Positions 15,001 through 27,000 of a DNA stretch of 64,000 bases are shown one piece after another. Location of the stretch: positions 34,410,001 to 34,474,000 of the forward strand of contig NC_087249.1 of NCBI RefSeq assembly GCF_037042905.1, in the 5' to 3' direction. Position 1 is the first letter of the stretch, and every line of letters begins with the position of its first letter. Position numbers: made by a program. Source of the DNA: Lytechinus pictus. Lineage: Eukaryota.

Positions 15001-18000
15001 TACTCCAATTTGCAAGAAAAAAAAAAGATCTCTGTTTTAAAAAGTGCCCAAAGAGGAAAACTGTTCACACAGATAAATAAATCTTCCAAAAGGTGTATTT
15101 TTTCCTTCCTCAATGGGTGCGGGGGGGGGGGGGGGGGGGGGGGGGGGTGCAGTTATATAAGGCAAGCAGACTCCAGGTTTATAAGGAGTCATTTTTATGA
15201 TGATAAACTTGATTGCGTAACATGATGGCTAATGTAAAGAAGTTTGAAGTGGGCAAAAGAAGACACAAACAAGTGAAGAATCAGAAAGGTGACAAACCTA
15301 AATACAAATAACACAAGCTTCATTCCTTTATCTTTTTTATGTGTCAATTAATTTACAATTTTTTGGGGGGGTTGGCTTCTATGCACAATGAATGAAAATA
15401 AAAAGTCAATGCCAACATTGCAAAAGAAGAAACAAAACGCATCAAGTATGAGCTGCAGATTTCTTGCATGTCATATCAAATTTATGTTGATAGATTGAAT
15501 TCAACGGTCTTTCAAGTTCTTTTGAGAAAAAAAAGAAGTATATTTTAATTGGCGACTTAGGCCCATATTCTGGCATCAGGTTTAACTTAGACCATGGTCT
15601 AACTCTGTGCTAAAATCATGGGAAGCCAAAAGTGTCAAAATTTTTATTAAGTTGTATGTTTCTTATGTTTTCTGTGCTCTTTCCTGATTCACCAATGGTG
15701 AAAAAAAATCATCTTTTTATACTTCCTAGACAATTATGAATGATTTGAGAGCCAAATGAGCTGAAATATGATATCTCTACTGTTAGTGATTTATGTAAAA
15801 ATTGGCTATCCATACTTAAACCACAACTTTACACCTGAGTATAAGTTAAACACGACTTCAGAATACGGGCCTTTGTATTTATAAACTGACAACTTCGACA
15901 ACTGGGGACCATTTCATGAAAGTTGTCAGCCCAAACAAATAGCCCCTCCCACTTCCCCAAAAAGTTATTCTCTGACAGTTGCCATCAAAACAATCAGAAG
16001 CCAGTCGTTCTCTGTAATCAACAATCTTAAATTAGTCAGCACTGACAGTTATTGGCAGCAGACAAAAGTTGAAGATACCACCCACCCTCCTCCTTCCTCT
16101 GAACGATGGGACTGAAATAAATCTAAATGAATATTCACAACTGTATATTTTCCATAGGCCTCAATTAATATTTTAGCATCATTTAATCTCCTTTTGCAAT
16201 CCATTTATACTTGAATTGATATTTCAGTCAGCCCTCAGCCCAACCCATCTTTCTTTAAAAGTCAAGAACGATCCCTGGATTCTTTTCCAATGTTGACTCT
16301 ACATATTGTGTCATGACATGTACACACAACACACCAGTGACGTGTGCAGTGCTCGACTATTGCAACTTGGACCCAGTTCTCATTACCACACTAAAACTAG
16401 TTTACTGAAAACTGGTTTAGTGGAAACTAGTTTAATATGTAATGAAAACGGCTGAAGCGATCATCTTCCAAACCTGTTTGGAAAACCACCTCAAGATGTA
16501 GTTTTCGAGATCGCTTTGCCTCGTTAAACTGGTTTTAGCATAAGTGAGGACACAACCGTTCTTCAGGAAGCAATCTTTGCACATTTTGAGCCCGCTACTC
16601 GACAAACTGTGAGTAGAATGTCTACGCTGCGGTTTTGAATTTTGCGAGAAACATGTCACCCCCACTGAGAGCATTCCCATAGCAACAAGGCCACTTTAAA
16701 TGAAGTGCTTTTGAAAACCACTTTCGGTTGATCATATGAGAATGCTAGCAATGCGATCTTCCAAACTGGTTTCCGGAACCGATCTCCAAACTAGTTTTAG
16801 AAAGTATTATGAGAATGGTGTCTTGCCCAATAAATGTCACTACATTCAACATGTATGTCTTTCAGAGACATGTTCATGACAGATGACGGAATGGCATTTT
16901 ACAGCTTAACTTTCAATTAGTGCCCTCCAGAGAATTTTTTCAAACTTTAATAATAGCAACATGATAATCCTAATGTCATTTAAATATCCATGTATTAATA
17001 TCAATGAATATCTCATTTAAAGGGACCTTTAAGAAAATTAAGTTTCATTGAACATAAATCGGCTTTCATTTTCAATTACATGTGATCACTTGCAATTAAA
17101 CTCTGTTCTCACTCATGAAGTTTTTTAAATGAATATCACATTTACAGGGACCTATAAGAAAATTTAAAGTCTCATTTAACCTTAGTACCCTTTCATTTTC
17201 AATTGCATGTGATCACTTGCAATCAATCTCAGTTCTCACTCATGTATTTTACCATTATTATTTTTTCATCCACATACATGTACCCAATAAACCCAACCAA
17301 TCAGTTATTAATGAAACACAGCCCTCACCTTCCTTATCTCTTTGTAAGTCAATATTTAATCAAAACATATTTATGATAATTGAATGGTACACGCAATCAC
17401 CAATCTTTCTTTTCTTCCCACCCACCTCATTATTTGCATACCAGCCCACTGTCATTTGCAAAAGAAAAGTCCCTAATTATGCATGACAATAGCTATGGCA
17501 CACATGAGTGGACGCAGCATGTGTGATGTCACAAGCTAGTGTGCTGTGCAGTATTTACTAATGTGTGTGTGTGTGTGTGAGTGTGTGTGCAGTACAGCAT
17601 GGTACCTGTGTGTGCATAAGAGCTGTATTACGTGGAGACGGCATAGCCTGGCACCGGATTTCAATAGTGGTTTGTCCTTTTTTCCCTCAAAGGCTTTTTG
17701 ATGTTGCTTGTACAGCGTTGCATGGTCTTTCTGGTGTCAAAAGACGGACTGCTTCGAATTCTGTACAACCAGTCAACCAACTGTCGCTTTGATAGCAAAC
17801 ATCAGTATAGGGATCATGTGTTAAAGAGCTATGACGGAATACACCAGTGTAGTAGTTAATTTACTGGCATGAGTTGTTACTAACTATCAAAAATGTTATT
17901 ATCAGAGATGGAGGGGTCTGCTGTGCTGAACAGATGGCAAAGTCAAAACCTAGGAAGAAAACAGAAATCCAGCTATTCCTTTAAGCAGGAATGACATCAA

Positions 18001-24000: not shown

Positions 24001-27000
24001 AAAGAAAATTGATACATGTACTGCTTAATGCCAAAGCTTATTATAAATTGATGTGACATCATATGTAAGAACGATGTACTGTATTTCTGTTGTCTAACAT
24101 GTACTTAATGTACTAAAATGAAAATAATTGACTTGACTTAAAATCATGAAGATATTTATATTCTGTGAGATTTATATATTTTGCTTCAAAAAGACTATGG
24201 GTTGTGTTGATTGATATGTTAAATTAAAAGAAACAAATCAAGTGGAATATTTGAGTTGTGTTTCTCATTAGAATGTAGTAAAATAAAGTGTTACAGAATT
24301 CAGTGTTAACCAAGGAGAAGTTGGATTATTGGGTCATACAGAGAGACGGATTTAATTTAATCTTAGAACTTTGAATTAATCTCAAGCTCAAATAGAATAT
24401 AATCGGTTACTCTTTGAAATACTGGTCCCTAATGAATCTGATACATGTATTCCTGGTCCCAGCACAGAGCATTCTGTTGGATATTTTAACCTGATATTAT
24501 GAATTCTCTTGGACCTTACAAAAACTTTTAACTTTGATCAGCAAAAATATGAGATTCAAGAGAGGAGGGAGAGGGTGAGAGACAGATAACGTAAGATGGA
24601 GGGAAAAAAATAACTACATCTGCAAAATACTTGTGCTAATGAGATGCTGTGAAGTATTATGAGCTCTACATTCACAGATTTATTATTTCTAAGAATCGAC
24701 AGCTTGTAGCTGGTTAACAAAGAAATTCAATTTGTCTTGGTTGTACTTGAGATATAAATGTATTTTAATATAATTACAGAATGACCTAAAAATATCAGAG
24801 GGCAGATTTTTACTGTTTGTTATTAAAATGAAGAGCTCATTTGTACGTCACATCCTCTCTGTGGAACAATGAAGTGATAATGAAAAAAGAAGAACTTATT
24901 TCAGACTGTGAGTATTCTATTCATTCAACATACATAATTCATAACTTTTATCAATATCATTATTTTCTTTTAATCAAACTTTCACTAAAGTACTTCAAAT
25001 ATTTTCTGATACAGGGTGAATAAGCCTTATGAGTTTCATTCTCCTTTTAGATTTCCTGTAGCAACTGGAGGTGGATTTGAAAGCACACAGACTATTTAAA
25101 AACATGTGGGCTGCACAGATGTTACCTTACACTGCTCAAGAAGAAAGAAATATTATCCATACTGCATAATGCTCAAGTATCTTAAAGGCCATAATGGAGT
25201 TATTTCCTTTCACTGCTGGTTTAGATACCAGGGTCCCATATTGATAGCGACATGCATTGGCTGACAGTGATAGCGGCAGGAAACGGAGCAAGGATCTAGG
25301 CTTCCCTGGTTACATTCCTAACATGGTACGACCTGGTACAGACCAACATCAATCTCCTTCCACATACAGGATTGATTAATGTGAGGCATGTTCACATTCA
25401 AACACAATCACAATCTCTTACCCACCAAACACATGTACAGACCAACATCAATCTCCTTCCACATACAGGATTGATTAATGTGAGGCATGTTCACATTCAA
25501 ACACAATAACAATCTCTTACCCACCAAACACATGTACAGACCAACAGCAGCCTCCTTCGACATACAGAATTGATTAATATGAGGCATGTTCACATTCAGA
25601 CTTAAACACAATCTCTTACCCACCAGATGATGTGCTGACCTAGTCATTCTCCTTCCACATGCAGGATTGATTAATTTGAGGCATGTTCACATTCAGACTT
25701 TATCACTATCTTTTACCCACCAATGTACAGACATATGTCCAGTCTCCATCTACATACAGGATTGACTAATGTGAGGGATGTTCACATTAAAAGTTAATCA
25801 AAACCTGGTACATGTAGGTAGAGCAAAACATGAATTGAGCAACATCCTGATCTAGTATTGATAATTATTCAATATCATAGAAAAGTGACACACATTTCAA
25901 TATGTATCTCTCTCTTTGTTAAAGGGATGCTCCAGGCTGAAGATATATAGAATAAATAGAGTAAAATTCACAAAGCAAAATGCTGAAAATTTCATCAAAA
26001 TCAAAATCTGATTATACATACATGTAACAAAGTTATTGAATTTTAAAGATTTGCATTATTCCAGTGAAACAGTTCTAGGCATGTCTTCATGAATATTCAT
26101 TAGGTGGGTTGATGATGTTATATAGCCACTTGTTCTACCTACAACAAAACCAATTGGATTGACAACTGATTAAGTGCATTGATTATTTCTTGCTGCAACT
26201 TATTTTATAATAATGGAGATACATCATTTACACATTTATGAAAAAATGAAACAAATTATGATTTCATGTAATAACATAAGTAATAACATAAGAAAAATGA
26301 AAGTGGGGATGTGATATCATTAGCCACTTAGTGAATATTTATGAAGACATGCCTCGACCAGAACAATGCAAATCTTTAAAATTCAATAACTTTGTTATTT
26401 GTTATCCGAATTTGATGAAATTTTCAGCATTTTGCTCTGTGAATTTTTCTCTATTTACTAGTATATATATCAATATTTTCAGCCTGGAGCATCCCTTTAA
26501 TGAAGGGCACATTCACAATCAGATTTAATTAGGGTTAAAGAAAGTTAAACATTATGGTACCTACAGTCTGCACATACATGTACAACAGGTACTACAGCAT
26601 TCCCTACATGTAGCTAACAATAATAGCAACTTATTAATCAAATATGCTTTTAACACTGCACTTTTTGTCCTAAATTGGTGGGGCTAAGGGGGGGGGGTCT
26701 TAGCCCCACCAATTTCACCAATTTCACACTACGTTTTAGCAAAGTGGGCTAGCACAGTAAATAGTACGGTACTATCTGGCCCTGCAAAAAAGCAGGGTTA
26801 GCCGGCTTATTGTGGTGCTAGCACCACAATTGCGGTGGTAAGAGATGCAGTGTGAAACGAAACAGGGCTAAGCAAAAGCGGGGCTAAGCATTAGCCAATC
26901 ACAGAAGTCAAAATTGCACGTTAATCGCGCTCTGTATGGTAAAATCATCAATATTTATGAGCTGTGTGATTGCCCGGGGTTAAGGCGTTAACCCCGGCTA

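What the first reader, a model, noticed from the sequence alone, without database searches (positions are those of the whole stretch)
17600..24290. Antisense vasorin-like receptor nested in the 30-kb intron that splits the GLYR1 Rossmann fold
Seen: intron 10101-40097 is far larger than the other introns and holds an intact 578-aa gene on the opposite strand, with its whole CDS in one exon after a probable non-coding exon. Established: vertebrate vasorin (VASN) has the same LRR-EGF-FN3-TM order and a single coding exon. It is itself nested in an intron (of CORO7) and lies in human 16p13.3, as does GLYR1. Inference: this may reflect ancient GLYR1-vasorin linkage with a change of host gene, and possible transcriptional interference between host and guest.
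Basis: partly seen in the sequence, partly recalled or inferred. Interest (0 to 1): 0.65.

Follow-up and report, generated by a model that had tools for sequence, protein, structure and literature searches.

The report
Receptor gene nested inside GLYR1 intron
A sea-urchin gene for a small leucine-rich-repeat membrane receptor sits intact, on the opposite strand, inside a 30-kb intron of a GLYR1-like gene; it has the same domain layout as vertebrate vasorin, but kinship with vasorin and an ancient linkage remain unproven.

Summary
A canonical GT..AG intron (10101-40097, minus strand) splits the NAD-binding domain of a GLYR1-like gene. It contains one intact 578-aa ORF on the plus strand (20186-21922). 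The protein reads signal peptide, LRRNT, about 3 LRRs, LRRCT, EGF, FN3, TM, then a 210-aa tail.

It is a real, conserved gene:
- 93% identical to Lytechinus variegatus LOC121412442.
- Full-length relatives in Diadema setosum.
- A collinear relative in the sea star Patiria miniata (27% identity, signal peptide to TM).

It belongs to a compact family of 12 sequences here; the 3 that carry names are echinoderm. Shared features are a furin-type R-x-K/R-R site between LRRCT and EGF (10 of 12 members) and, in echinoids, an invariant PPPPY motif.

"Vasorin-like" is supported for domain order only. Vasorin has 11 LRRs and an ~80-aa tail. No sequence search retrieved a named vasorin. The language-model similarity to vasorin disappears once the LRR part is removed. 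A module tree is unresolved at depth.

The mammalian half of the linkage claim is real: VASN/CORO7 and GLYR1 share a 0.8-Mb cattle window. Whether the nesting is conserved in echinoderms could not be tested, because no eukaryote genomes were available.

Verdict: an ordinary nested LRR-membrane gene of moderate interest.

The parts
10101..40097 (-). Host intron, 29,997 nt, GTAAGA...TTATAG, of the GLYR1-like gene. It contains the nested gene.
   Evidence: Read directly. The flanking exons carry NAD_binding_2 profile positions 1-36 and 35-73.
40098..40197 (-). Host exon with the GxGxxG dinucleotide-binding motif (..[33 protein letters not shown]).
   Evidence: (PF03446, E 2.2e-12).
9990..10100 (-). 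Next host exon (CEEFVKAGASQAETVSDLVSSCDITFSMVSDSEAVRA).
   Evidence: (PF03446 positions 35-73, E 3.1e-05).
17600..18012 (+). Putative non-coding first exon of the nested gene. The start is unknown; a candidate donor CA|GTAAGT lies at 18013.
   Evidence: Sequence read. GC is 0.43 against about 0.3 in the flanks. No transcript evidence, so this is inference only.
18013..20115 (+). Putative 5'-UTR intron of the nested gene. It ends in a pyrimidine tract plus TTTACAG.
   Evidence: In the ATG frame the tract translates to FSFSTSLYR. The unspliced N-terminal extension of the 66%-identical relative P0002 reads FFFSLYR at a similar distance from its Met, so the acceptor region appears conserved (inference).
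20186..21922 (+). Complete CDS of the nested gene, 578 aa plus stop, in a single exon.
   Evidence: 93% identical over 100% of its length to L. variegatus LOC121412442, which has the same start and end.
20186..20260 (+). Signal-peptide-like hydrophobic N-terminus (residues 1-25).
   Evidence: Hydropathy scan.
20300..20710 (+). LRRNT, about three LRR motifs and LRRCT (residues 39-175). Cys at 39, 43, 45, 52, 128, 130, 155 and 175. One N-glycosylation sequon at N47.
   Evidence: Pfam LRRNT 39-65, LRR_8 68-126, LRR_4. Cys positions and motifs. Invariant columns.
20717..20728 (+). RSRR (residues 178-181), a furin-type R-x-K/R-R site in the LRRCT-EGF linker. It is the only such site in the protein.
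   Evidence: The motif lies in this linker in 10 of 12 compact family members (absent in P0044 and P0054) and also in the multi-EGF variant P0069.
20741..20836 (+). EGF-like domain (residues 186-217, six Cys).
   Evidence: Pfam EGF, E 4.6e-4, 20.9 bits, just under the 21.5-bit cut-off. All six Cys are invariant in the 11-sequence alignment A2.
20873..21061 (+). Fibronectin type III domain (Pfam match to residues 230-292; the domain runs to about residue 310).
   Evidence: Pfam fn3, E 1.6e-06, 28.6 bits. W241, P282 and C304 are invariant.
21221..21289 (+). Transmembrane helix (residues 346-368, AAVILGSIIGVCAFFIICLTLVY).
   Evidence: Hydropathy scan. C357, Y368 and R371 are invariant across the family.
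21773..21787 (+). PPPPY (residues 530-534) in the 210-aa cytoplasmic tail.
   Evidence: P530-E536 are invariant in the 5 echinoid sequences.
21923..24290 (+). Possible 3' UTR; its end is undetermined.
   Evidence: AATAAA at 22069, 22144, 22542, 23645 and 24282.

Best explanation
The region holds a real, intact protein-coding gene nested on the opposite strand within the largest intron of a GLYR1-like (PWWP + AT-hook + beta-hydroxyacid-dehydrogenase-like) host gene of a sea urchin close to Lytechinus variegatus.

Its product is a type I single-pass membrane protein of a compact LRR-EGF-FN3 family that is conserved in sea urchins and sea stars. The layout is: signal peptide, LRRNT, about three LRRs, LRRCT, a polybasic linker, one EGF, one FN3, a Pro/His-rich stalk, a TM helix, and a 210-aa tail without a recognised domain.

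Shown: the ORF, the domains, the family, the conserved motifs and the nesting.

Inferred mechanism: it acts as a cell-surface receptor or adhesion molecule.
- The small LRR cap and the EGF bind a partner outside the cell.
- A proprotein convertase may cut at RSRR between the LRR cap and the EGF-FN3 stalk, releasing or re-arranging the cap. My estimate is about 0.4.
- The invariant PPPPY in the tail recruits a WW-domain protein (a Nedd4-type ligase or Yap-type adaptor) for turnover or signalling. My estimate is about 0.5.

Its likeness to vasorin is one of domain architecture. Membership of the vasorin orthogroup is not established. The nesting is an ordinary host-guest arrangement, of the kind already described for other LRR membrane genes.
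For: Gene and nesting
- ORF and coordinates.
- Splice sites of the host intron.

Host identity, searched exon by exon
- NAD_binding_2 in four exon pieces, NAD_binding_11 in two, and a weak PWWP hit.
- A PWWP-motif exon, AKMSSFPAWPGRV, near 54072.
- The best solved-structure match of exon piece 8501-8701 is N-PAC, 2uyy, E 4.3e-16.

Guest domains.

Conservation
- 4 of the 14 hits are full-length (88-100% coverage; 93, 66, 40 and 35% identity). They include L. variegatus and Diadema setosum.
- The profile search of 1.84 billion representatives gave six further compact collinear proteins: P0030, P0044, P0048, P0055 and P0151 in one stretch, and P0054 in two.
- P0030 is 55% identical to Patiria miniata LOC119727769.
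- Window protein against the Patiria protein: BLASTP 4e-35, 27% identity over residues 1-371 in one alignment.
- Echinoid profile against sea-star profile: hhalign 100%, E 4e-48, residues 38-372.
- All LRRNT, LRRCT and EGF cysteines are invariant or nearly so in 11 sequences.

Motifs
- Polybasic site in 10 of 12 members.
- PPPPYSE invariant in 5 of 5 echinoid sequences.

Precedent for LRR membrane genes nested antisense in large introns
- LRRTM1-3 in CTNNA1-3 (PMC3933685, abstract and introduction passages).
- Vasn in Coro7 (PMC10605842, passages).
Against: - No transcript or protein evidence was available, so expression, the 5' exon and the 3' end are unverified.
- EGF (20.9 bits) and LRRNT (20.1 bits) fall just below Pfam's curated cut-offs. 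They rest on the cysteine pattern and family conservation.
- The polybasic site is missing in 2 of 12 members, P0044 and P0054. It could instead be a glycosaminoglycan-binding patch.
- The PPPPY motif is absent from the three sea-star-type proteins. Their tails do not align with the echinoid tails, so tail function may differ between classes.
- The closeness of mammalian VASN and GLYR1 is a coincidence that a purely 'ordinary' reading leaves unexplained.
Confidence: 0.72

Rival explanations
1. The gene is the echinoderm orthologue, or a local-duplicate co-orthologue, of vasorin. Its position inside GLYR1 reflects an ancient VASN-CORO7-GLYR1 neighbourhood in which the guest changed host.
For: - Same domain order, and a CDS in a single exon after a probable non-coding exon. 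[quoted passage not shown]
- In the whole-protein atlas search, three of the top five clusters are vasorin, at 0.96 with 202-209 of 256 shared features.
- In cattle, CORO7, VASN and GLYR1 lie in one 0.8-Mb window with 13 genes listed between VASN and GLYR1. A goat list gives the same order.
- Coro7 is linked to Dnaja3 in Saccoglossus, so part of this block is old (PMC10605842, passage).
- The compact family is homologous, from the last LRRs to the TM, to a long LRR-EGF-FN3-TM protein (hhalign A2 against P0098: 99.7%, E 3.9e-25). Shrinkage from a vasorin-type ancestor is therefore possible.
Against: - About 3 LRRs against 11, and a 210-aa tail against about 80 aa.
- No named vasorin. No vasorin-sized LRR-EGF-FN3 representative among the proteins on disk that match the EGF-FN3-TM module, although FLRT-like representatives do appear among the best 150 (P0083 at 131 bits, P0115 at 118 bits).
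- Without the LRR part, the atlas finds only generic FN3 membrane proteins at 0.87.
- The architecture is not unique to vasorin (P0098, P0113, P0105, P0117).
- Deep nodes of the module tree have 37/28 support.
- A vasn/flrt-related gene already sits in Ciona Coro7, so an extra relocation is required.
- Vasorin was chosen as the comparator after the fact, from several LRR-FN3 families, which weakens the weight of the linkage coincidence.
Confidence: 0.22
2. Host and guest are functionally coupled. Antisense transcription of the guest interferes with, or is gated by, transcription of GLYR1 through the 30-kb intron.
For: Only the geometry. The guest is on the opposite strand and lies wholly inside the intron. 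CpG observed/expected is low (0.1-0.5) across guest and intron alike, as expected if both lie in one methylated transcribed body (inference).
Against: No expression data of any kind were available. Nested antisense genes are common and, as far as I recall (not checked here), usually show no strong anticorrelation with their hosts.
Confidence: 0.12
3. The ORF is a decaying retrocopy or pseudogene, or an annotation artefact, and not a working gene.
For: The CDS has no introns and lies in repeat-rich intronic DNA.
Against: - 590 open codons in 35% GC DNA.
- Full-length relatives down to 35% identity keep every structural cysteine, the TM helix and the tail motifs.
- The sea-star relative is collinear over residues 1-371.
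- A likely conserved splice acceptor lies upstream, which argues against a simple retrocopy.
Confidence: 0.03

Closest known systems
Vasorin (VASN / Slit-like 2), vertebrates
   Same: Type I membrane protein with signal peptide, LRRNT, LRRs, LRRCT, one EGF, one FN3 and a TM, in that order. Its coding sequence is in one exon after an upstream exon, and it is nested in an intron of another gene (PMC6288187 and PMC10605842, passages). Vasorin clusters are the nearest in the whole-protein atlas search.
   Different: - Vasorin has 11 LRRs and an ~80-aa tail. This protein has about 3 LRRs and a 210-aa tail with PPPPY.
- The host is GLYR1-like, not CORO7.
- No sequence-level link to a named vasorin was obtained.
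- The conserved R-x-K/R-R linker site is a feature of the compact family. I have no information on whether vasorin has one.
Echinoderm 'uncharacterized protein' family: L. variegatus LOC121412442, a Diadema setosum protein, Patiria miniata LOC119727769
   Same: Same length class (517-604 aa for most members) and the same collinear LRRNT-3LRR-LRRCT-EGF-FN3-TM layout. The cysteines and TM residues are conserved and the linker is polybasic. The window gene is a member; 93% identity to LOC121412442 makes that the likely orthologue.
   Different: Cytoplasmic tails differ between classes. The echinoid motifs (PPPPYSE, IVADGNxYPLDP) are not found in the sea-star-type proteins, which share NPTY/NTAY, DIPLILVTS and a C-terminal IQC.
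LRRTM1-3 nested in alpha-catenin introns (vertebrates)
   Same: An LRR membrane gene, with its CDS in one or almost one exon, lying on the opposite strand in a large conserved intron of a host gene (PMC3933685, abstract and introduction passages).
   Different: A different LRR family (no EGF or FN3), different hosts, and vertebrate-only.
FLRT1-3
   Same: LRR plus FN3 plus TM. The last LRRs and LRRCT of FLRT2/3 are among the best solved-structure matches. FLRT-like representatives P0083 and P0115 appear in the profile search.
   Different: FLRTs have about 10 LRRs and no EGF.

Membership tests
Vasorin (VASN) | Domain order: signal peptide, LRRNT, LRRs, LRRCT, EGF, FN3, TM | tested here: met
   Pfam LRRNT 39-65, LRR_8 68-126, EGF 186-216, fn3 230-292. 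Hydrophobic segments at 1-25 and 346-368. The vasorin order is taken from PMC6288187 passages.
Vasorin (VASN) | About 11 LRRs between the flanking motifs | tested here: not met
   Only about three LRR motifs (69-91, 92-115, 116-~139) lie between LRRNT and LRRCT. Vasorin has 11.
Vasorin (VASN) | Short cytoplasmic tail of about 80 aa | tested here: not met
   The tail runs from residue 369 to 578, 210 aa.
Vasorin (VASN) | Groups with named vasorins by reciprocal search or phylogeny | tested here: inconclusive
   No named vasorin was retrieved, so none could be put in a tree. The module tree without them is unresolved at depth (37/28 support). The atlas lead to vasorin is lost without the LRR part.
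Vasorin (VASN) | Nested in an intron of CORO7 | tested here: not met
   The host exons carry PWWP, NAD_binding_2 and NAD_binding_11, which is a GLYR1-like gene and not a coronin.
Vasorin (VASN) | Binds TGF-beta; ectodomain shed by ADAM17; EGF binds Islr2 | not testable with these tools
   These functions are known from PMC4618557 passages and need bench work.
Compact echinoderm LRR-EGF-FN3 family (LOC121412442 type) | Collinear homology from LRRNT to TM in a protein of about 520-600 aa | tested here: met
   E 4e-35; hhalign 100%, E 4e-48.
Compact echinoderm LRR-EGF-FN3 family (LOC121412442 type) | R-x-K/R-R in the LRRCT-EGF linker | tested here: met
   RSRR at 178-181. The motif is present in 10 of 12 members.
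FLRT | About 10 LRRs, FN3 and TM, without an EGF domain | tested here: not met
   An EGF domain is present and there are only about 3 LRRs. BLASTP against FLRT-like P0115 gives E 1e-09 over the LRR and FN3 parts only.
LRRN4 / ELFN type | LRR, FN3 and TM, without EGF | tested here: not met
   An EGF domain is present. BLASTP against LRRN4 (P0167) gives E 1e-05 and matches only piecewise (FN3 at 236-310 and separate short LRR stretches), with no EGF match.
GLYR1 / N-PAC (host gene) | PWWP domain, AT-hook and a beta-hydroxyacid-dehydrogenase-like domain (NAD_binding_2 + NAD_binding_11) in one gene | tested here: met
   - NAD_binding_2 in four exon pieces and NAD_binding_11 in two.
- PWWP is weak: E 0.0033, below the curated cut-off. 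A SFPAWPGR motif exon lies near 54072.
- KKRGRP is read by eye in 43747-43956; recognising it as an AT-hook is from recall.
- The best solved-structure hit of one exon piece is N-PAC, 2uyy.
Nested (host-guest) gene pair | Guest lies wholly inside one intron of the host, here on the opposite strand | tested here: met
   Guest CDS 20186-21922 (+) lies inside intron 10101-40097 (-).

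The most novel reading that the evidence does not exclude
The compact echinoderm LRR-EGF-FN3 family descends from the same ancestral gene as chordate vasorin. Its position inside GLYR1 would then be a remnant of a deuterostome-wide CORO7-VASN-DNAJA3...GLYR1 neighbourhood, in which a nested LRR gene moved, or was locally duplicated, from one host intron to another and lost most of its LRRs. A second new point would be that the family is processed at a conserved furin-type site between the LRR cap and the EGF-FN3 stalk.
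Probability: 0.22. Interest if true: 0.55.

Novelty: new member of a known kind. Interest (0 to 1): 0.3.

Why it matters
As it stands, this is a tidy example of a common arrangement: an LRR membrane gene with a one-exon CDS nested antisense in a long intron. The gene is already present in public databases as an uncharacterised protein of a close relative.

It gives a handle on a small family, so far named only in echinoderms, of LRR-EGF-FN3 receptors with two testable motifs: a polybasic linker and PPPPY.

If the link to vasorin and the GLYR1 neighbourhood proved ancient, it would add a case of deep microsynteny and of host switching by a nested gene. It would also give sea-urchin embryos a tractable relative of a TGF-beta and axon-guidance modulator.

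Tried and rejected
I obtained one name instead from the search for homologous proteins.
- Word-indexed search with the 11-sequence alignment. It returned only the echinoid proteins and LRR-only or EGF-only hits (26 proteins at E <= 1e-5). It failed to recover six of its own input sequences, so its silence on vasorin carries little weight.
- Search with the 3-sequence alignment. It recovered only relatives of the first sequence. P0048 and P0054 stayed unnamed.
- Profile search of solved structures. Of 568 matches, the best 60 shown are all LRR ectodomains (LRIG1, FLRT2/3, ALS, LGR4/5, TLRs, LRRC4, LRRTM, LRRC32). None is named vasorin, and the matches cover the LRR part only.
- ML tree of the EGF-FN3-TM module, 25 rows and 217 columns. 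Rows with module scores of 25 bits or less, or with matches spanning 110 profile columns or fewer, were left out. Only shallow clades are supported and the bootstrap had not settled.
- Rfam and tRNA scans of the window found nothing.
- Pfam on 10 other intronic ORFs of at least 90 aa, chosen from the 16 that remain once the guest ORF, two ORFs in other frames of its CDS and the host-exon ORF are set aside. 0 of 10 gave a hit at E <= 0.01.
- The last host exon was not found by a motif search or by Pfam on ten candidate pieces (1 of 10 hit).
- The PWWP exon gave no solved-structure match.
- Literature. No paper holds both vasorin and sea urchin. None holds VASN, GLYR1, CORO7 and 16p13.3 together. 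The two papers holding GLYR1, intron and nested are irrelevant. A loose five-term search listed 12 papers, none of which mentions vasorin. Of four papers holding vasorin, invertebrate and ortholog, only PMC10605842 is relevant.
Exons were searched singly.
No related eukaryotic locus could be fetched, so synteny stayed unchecked.

Full report
WHAT IS THERE

The window has no N and about 35% GC. With the standard code, a single ATG-started ORF of at least 100 aa overlaps 17000-25000: 20186..21922 on the plus strand, 578 aa. Stop to stop it spans 590 codons. It is by far the longest of the 20 ORFs of at least 90 aa that overlap 10101-40097; the next longest is 137 aa. Given the base composition, 590 open codons have a chance of about 3.6e-19 per start.

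THE HOST

On the minus strand, an exon reading ..[33 protein letters not shown] ends at 40098 and is followed by GTAAGA. The next exon, CEEFVKAGASQ.., starts at 10100 after TTATAG.

I searched the host exon by exon and made no joined spliced model.
- Pfam NAD_binding_2 profile positions 1-36, 35-73, 71-105 and 107-157 fall in four successive exon pieces. NAD_binding_11 positions 1-52 and 57-103 fall in two more.
- A weak PWWP match lies in 52961-53149 (E 0.0033, below the curated cut-off). A SFPAWPGR motif exon lies near 54072.
- A KKRGRP stretch lies in 43747-43956. Calling it an AT-hook is from recall.
- The best solved-structure match of exon piece 8501-8701 is N-PAC (2uyy, E 4.3e-16). For piece 7944-8138 it is a plant dehydrogenase-like protein (3doj), with N-PAC fourth.

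This is the GLYR1/N-PAC architecture. The intron does split the dinucleotide-binding domain after its first 36 profile positions. The other host introns that I could map in the window measure about 0.3 to 9 kb.

THE GUEST PROTEIN

Pfam finds the following:
- LRRNT, residues 39-65 (20.1 bits, under the curated cut-off).
- LRR_8, residues 68-126 (E 1.1e-08), and LRR_4.
- EGF, residues 186-216 (20.9 bits, just under the cut-off).
- fn3, residues 230-292 (E 1.6e-06).

A hydropathy scan gives two hydrophobic segments, 1-25 (signal peptide) and 346-368 (TM helix). There is one ectodomain N-glycosylation sequon, N47, and a PPPY at 531.

By direct reading there are about three LRR motifs between the LRRNT and LRRCT cysteine knots. 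The cytoplasmic tail is 210 aa.

IT IS A CONSERVED GENE

Of 14 proteins with E <= 1e-3 in the word-indexed search, 4 are full-length:
- L. variegatus LOC121412442 (93% identity, 100% coverage).
- An unnamed record (66%).
- Another unnamed record (40%).
- A Diadema setosum protein (35%).

The other 10 hits cover only 10-17% of the query, the LRR part.

The five-sequence echinoid alignment keeps every structural cysteine, the TM helix and several tail motifs: NVLQAL, VVLY, IVADGNxYPLDPxLSxVL, PPPPYSE.

A profile of these five, searched against 1.84 billion representatives, matched 12,024 proteins at E <= 1e-3. Most are huge repeat proteins. Among the best 150 there are six proteins of 460-534 aa that match collinearly from the LRRNT to beyond the TM: P0030 (E 2.4e-56), P0044, P0048, P0055 and P0151 in one stretch, and P0054 in two. 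Four of these (P0030, P0044, P0048, P0054) show the same LRRNT-LRR-EGF/FN3 Pfam layout; P0055 has no EGF hit and P0151 only a weak EGF_Teneurin hit, though both match the module profile.

P0030 is 55% identical to Patiria miniata LOC119727769 (P0175). The window protein aligns with that sea-star protein over residues 1-371 in one BLASTP alignment (27% identity, E 4e-35). The echinoid and sea-star profiles match with hhalign probability 100% and E 4e-48 over residues 38-372. The tails do not align.

The family is therefore at least as old as the sea-urchin/sea-star split.

FAMILY-SPECIFIC FEATURES

An R-x-[KR]-R motif lies in the short linker between the last LRRCT cysteine and the first EGF cysteine in 10 of 12 compact members (not in P0044 or P0054). 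It is also present in the multi-EGF variant P0069. In the window protein, RSRR 178-181 is the only such site in all 578 residues. The long LRR-EGF-FN3 proteins P0098, P0113, P0105 and P0117 have none at that junction.

This is a furin-type consensus (recalled), so I propose convertase processing between the LRR cap and the EGF-FN3 stalk. A basic ligand-binding patch is the alternative.

PPPPYSE is invariant in the five echinoid sequences. PPPPY or PPPAY also occurs in P0054 and P0069. A PPxY motif binding WW domains is recalled knowledge.

GENE MODEL

The ORF is closed 12 codons upstream of the ATG. A pyrimidine tract plus TTTACAG ends at 20115. In the ATG frame it translates to FSFSTSLYR. The 66%-identical relative P0002 carries an unspliced N-terminal extension reading ..FFFSLYR.. 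at a similar distance from its Met. This suggests a conserved splice acceptor and hence an upstream non-coding exon.

A GTAAGT is expected about once per 3 kb by chance, however, and there are no transcript data.

The 3' end is open. Five plus-strand AATAAA lie between the stop and 24290. The hexamer is only marginally more frequent than in shuffles (166 against 139 +/- 12; 2 of 100 shuffles reached 166), so none marks the end.

REST OF THE INTRON

- No Rfam family or tRNA in the window.
- No Pfam domain at E <= 0.01 in the 10 other intronic ORFs that I scanned.
- Satellites at 25336-25792 and 33592-34942.
- Dispersed repeats shared with other host introns.

IS IT VASORIN?

According to a review (PMC6288187, passages), vasorin is 673 aa. 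It has a signal peptide, 11 LRRs with flanking motifs, one EGF, one FN3, a TM and an ~80-aa tail. [quoted passage not shown]

The domain order and the one-exon CDS therefore match. The LRR number and tail length do not.

For a specific link:
- The whole-protein atlas search puts vasorin clusters first (0.96; 209, 208 and 202 of 256 shared features), ahead of FLRT and ELFN at 0.93.
- The compact family is homologous, from the last LRRs through the TM, to a long LRR-EGF-FN3-TM protein, P0098 (hhalign 99.7%, E 3.9e-25).

Against a specific link:
- With residues 183-578 only, the atlas gives generic FN3 single-pass proteins at 0.87 and no vasorin.
- None of the three word-indexed searches listed a protein named vasorin. 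One search missed even its own inputs, so this is weak evidence.
- Among all proteins on disk, only the compact family, P0069, P0098, P0113, P0105/P0117, an LRRN4 and a few others match the EGF-FN3-TM module. None of them is a vasorin-sized protein with about 10 LRRs.
- LRR-EGF-FN3-TM is not unique to vasorin.
- The ML tree of the module (25 rows, 217 columns) supports only shallow clades: echinoids plus P0151 at 93/98, the sea-star trio at 99/100, and P0048+P0055 at 99/99. The deep split has 37/28 support.

I could not obtain a named vasorin sequence, so the decisive tree was not built.

LINKAGE

PMC10605842 (passages) makes three relevant statements:
- Vasn is embedded in Coro7 in all loci the authors analysed except Danio.
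- A Ciona Coro7 intron holds a gene related to both flrt1 and vasn.
- One Saccoglossus Coro7 is linked to Dnaja3.

Its Fig. S6 was not visible because supplements were closed.

A cattle GWAS table lists CORO7, VASN, DNAJA3... ROGDI, GLYR1, UBN1 in one window, chr25:3,538,408-4,345,274 (PMC12075139, one passage). A goat gene list gives the same order (PMC9902602, one passage). The mammalian closeness of VASN and GLYR1 is therefore real. It is a coincidence worth noting.

It is weakened in two ways. Vasorin was picked after the fact from several LRR-FN3 families. And the Coro7 nest is already present in a tunicate, so a host switch or a local duplication must be added.

The window holds no neighbour of the host gene, and no eukaryotic genome collection was available. 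Neither the age of the nesting nor echinoderm GLYR1-CORO7 linkage could be checked. I put the ancient-linkage reading at about 0.2.

KNOWN KIND

LRR membrane genes with a one-exon CDS nested antisense in large introns are already described: LRRTM1-3 in CTNNA1-3 (PMC3933685, abstract and introduction passages) and vasn in Coro7.

The protein itself is already in public sets. The atlas holds it letter for letter, and its L. variegatus counterpart is annotated as uncharacterised. My searches found no paper on this family or on a gene nested in GLYR1.

VERDICT

This is a new member of a known kind, of modest interest, with two concrete testable motifs and one clear synteny test.

Noticed in passing
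window 46064-47977, minus strand: Retroelement remnant inside another host intron. ORF 46340-46651 matches Pfam RVT_1 (E 4.4e-07), with an adjoining ORF at 46064-46336. A 275-aa ORF at 47153-47977 has no Pfam hit, but its ..IGETARPIVERISEHKRD.. stretch looks to me like a GIY-YIG nuclease motif, as in Penelope-like elements (recalled, not tested).
   Followed up: partly
window 42207-43376: A C-rich 25-bp minisatellite, about 25 copies, at 42758-43376, next to a 157-bp tandem repeat at 42207-42654. Together they explain the GC skew of -0.40 in 42001-44000. They lie in the host intron upstream of the GxGxxG exon.
   Followed up: partly
window 10001-11000, 13001-14000, 30001-32000, 36001-37500: Islands with CpG observed/expected of 0.8-1.55 in an intron otherwise at 0.1-0.5. 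The island at 13001-14000 also has GC of 0.42-0.52. The one at 36577-37125 is a dispersed repeat with a copy at 51201-51714. The others could be young repeats or unmethylated regulatory DNA, including a possible distal promoter of the guest.
   Followed up: no
window 33592-34942 and 25336-25792: A 395-bp satellite (3.4 copies, 93% matches) and a 99-bp tandem repeat (4.7 copies) inside the 30-kb intron, downstream of the guest gene.
   Followed up: no
window 59084-60276 and 60497-60993: A tandem duplication of about 745 bp (copies 95-96% identical), and an inverted repeat with 144-nt arms, 96% complementary and 209 nt apart, upstream of the mapped host exons. A foldback or MITE-like element is possible.
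   Followed up: no
proteins P0048, P0055, P0054, P0151, P0069: Unnamed compact LRR-EGF-FN3-TM proteins, plus a seven-EGF variant (P0069), that share the family's cysteine pattern. Some also share the polybasic linker and a PPxY-type motif. Their organisms are unknown, so the family may reach beyond echinoderms.
   Followed up: partly
window 20741-20836 (EGF, residues 191-197): The EGF reads C-LNGG-T-C between its second and third cysteines. This fits the O-fucosylation consensus C2-x4-S/T-C3 as I recall it. The Thr is kept in most but not all family members.
   Followed up: no
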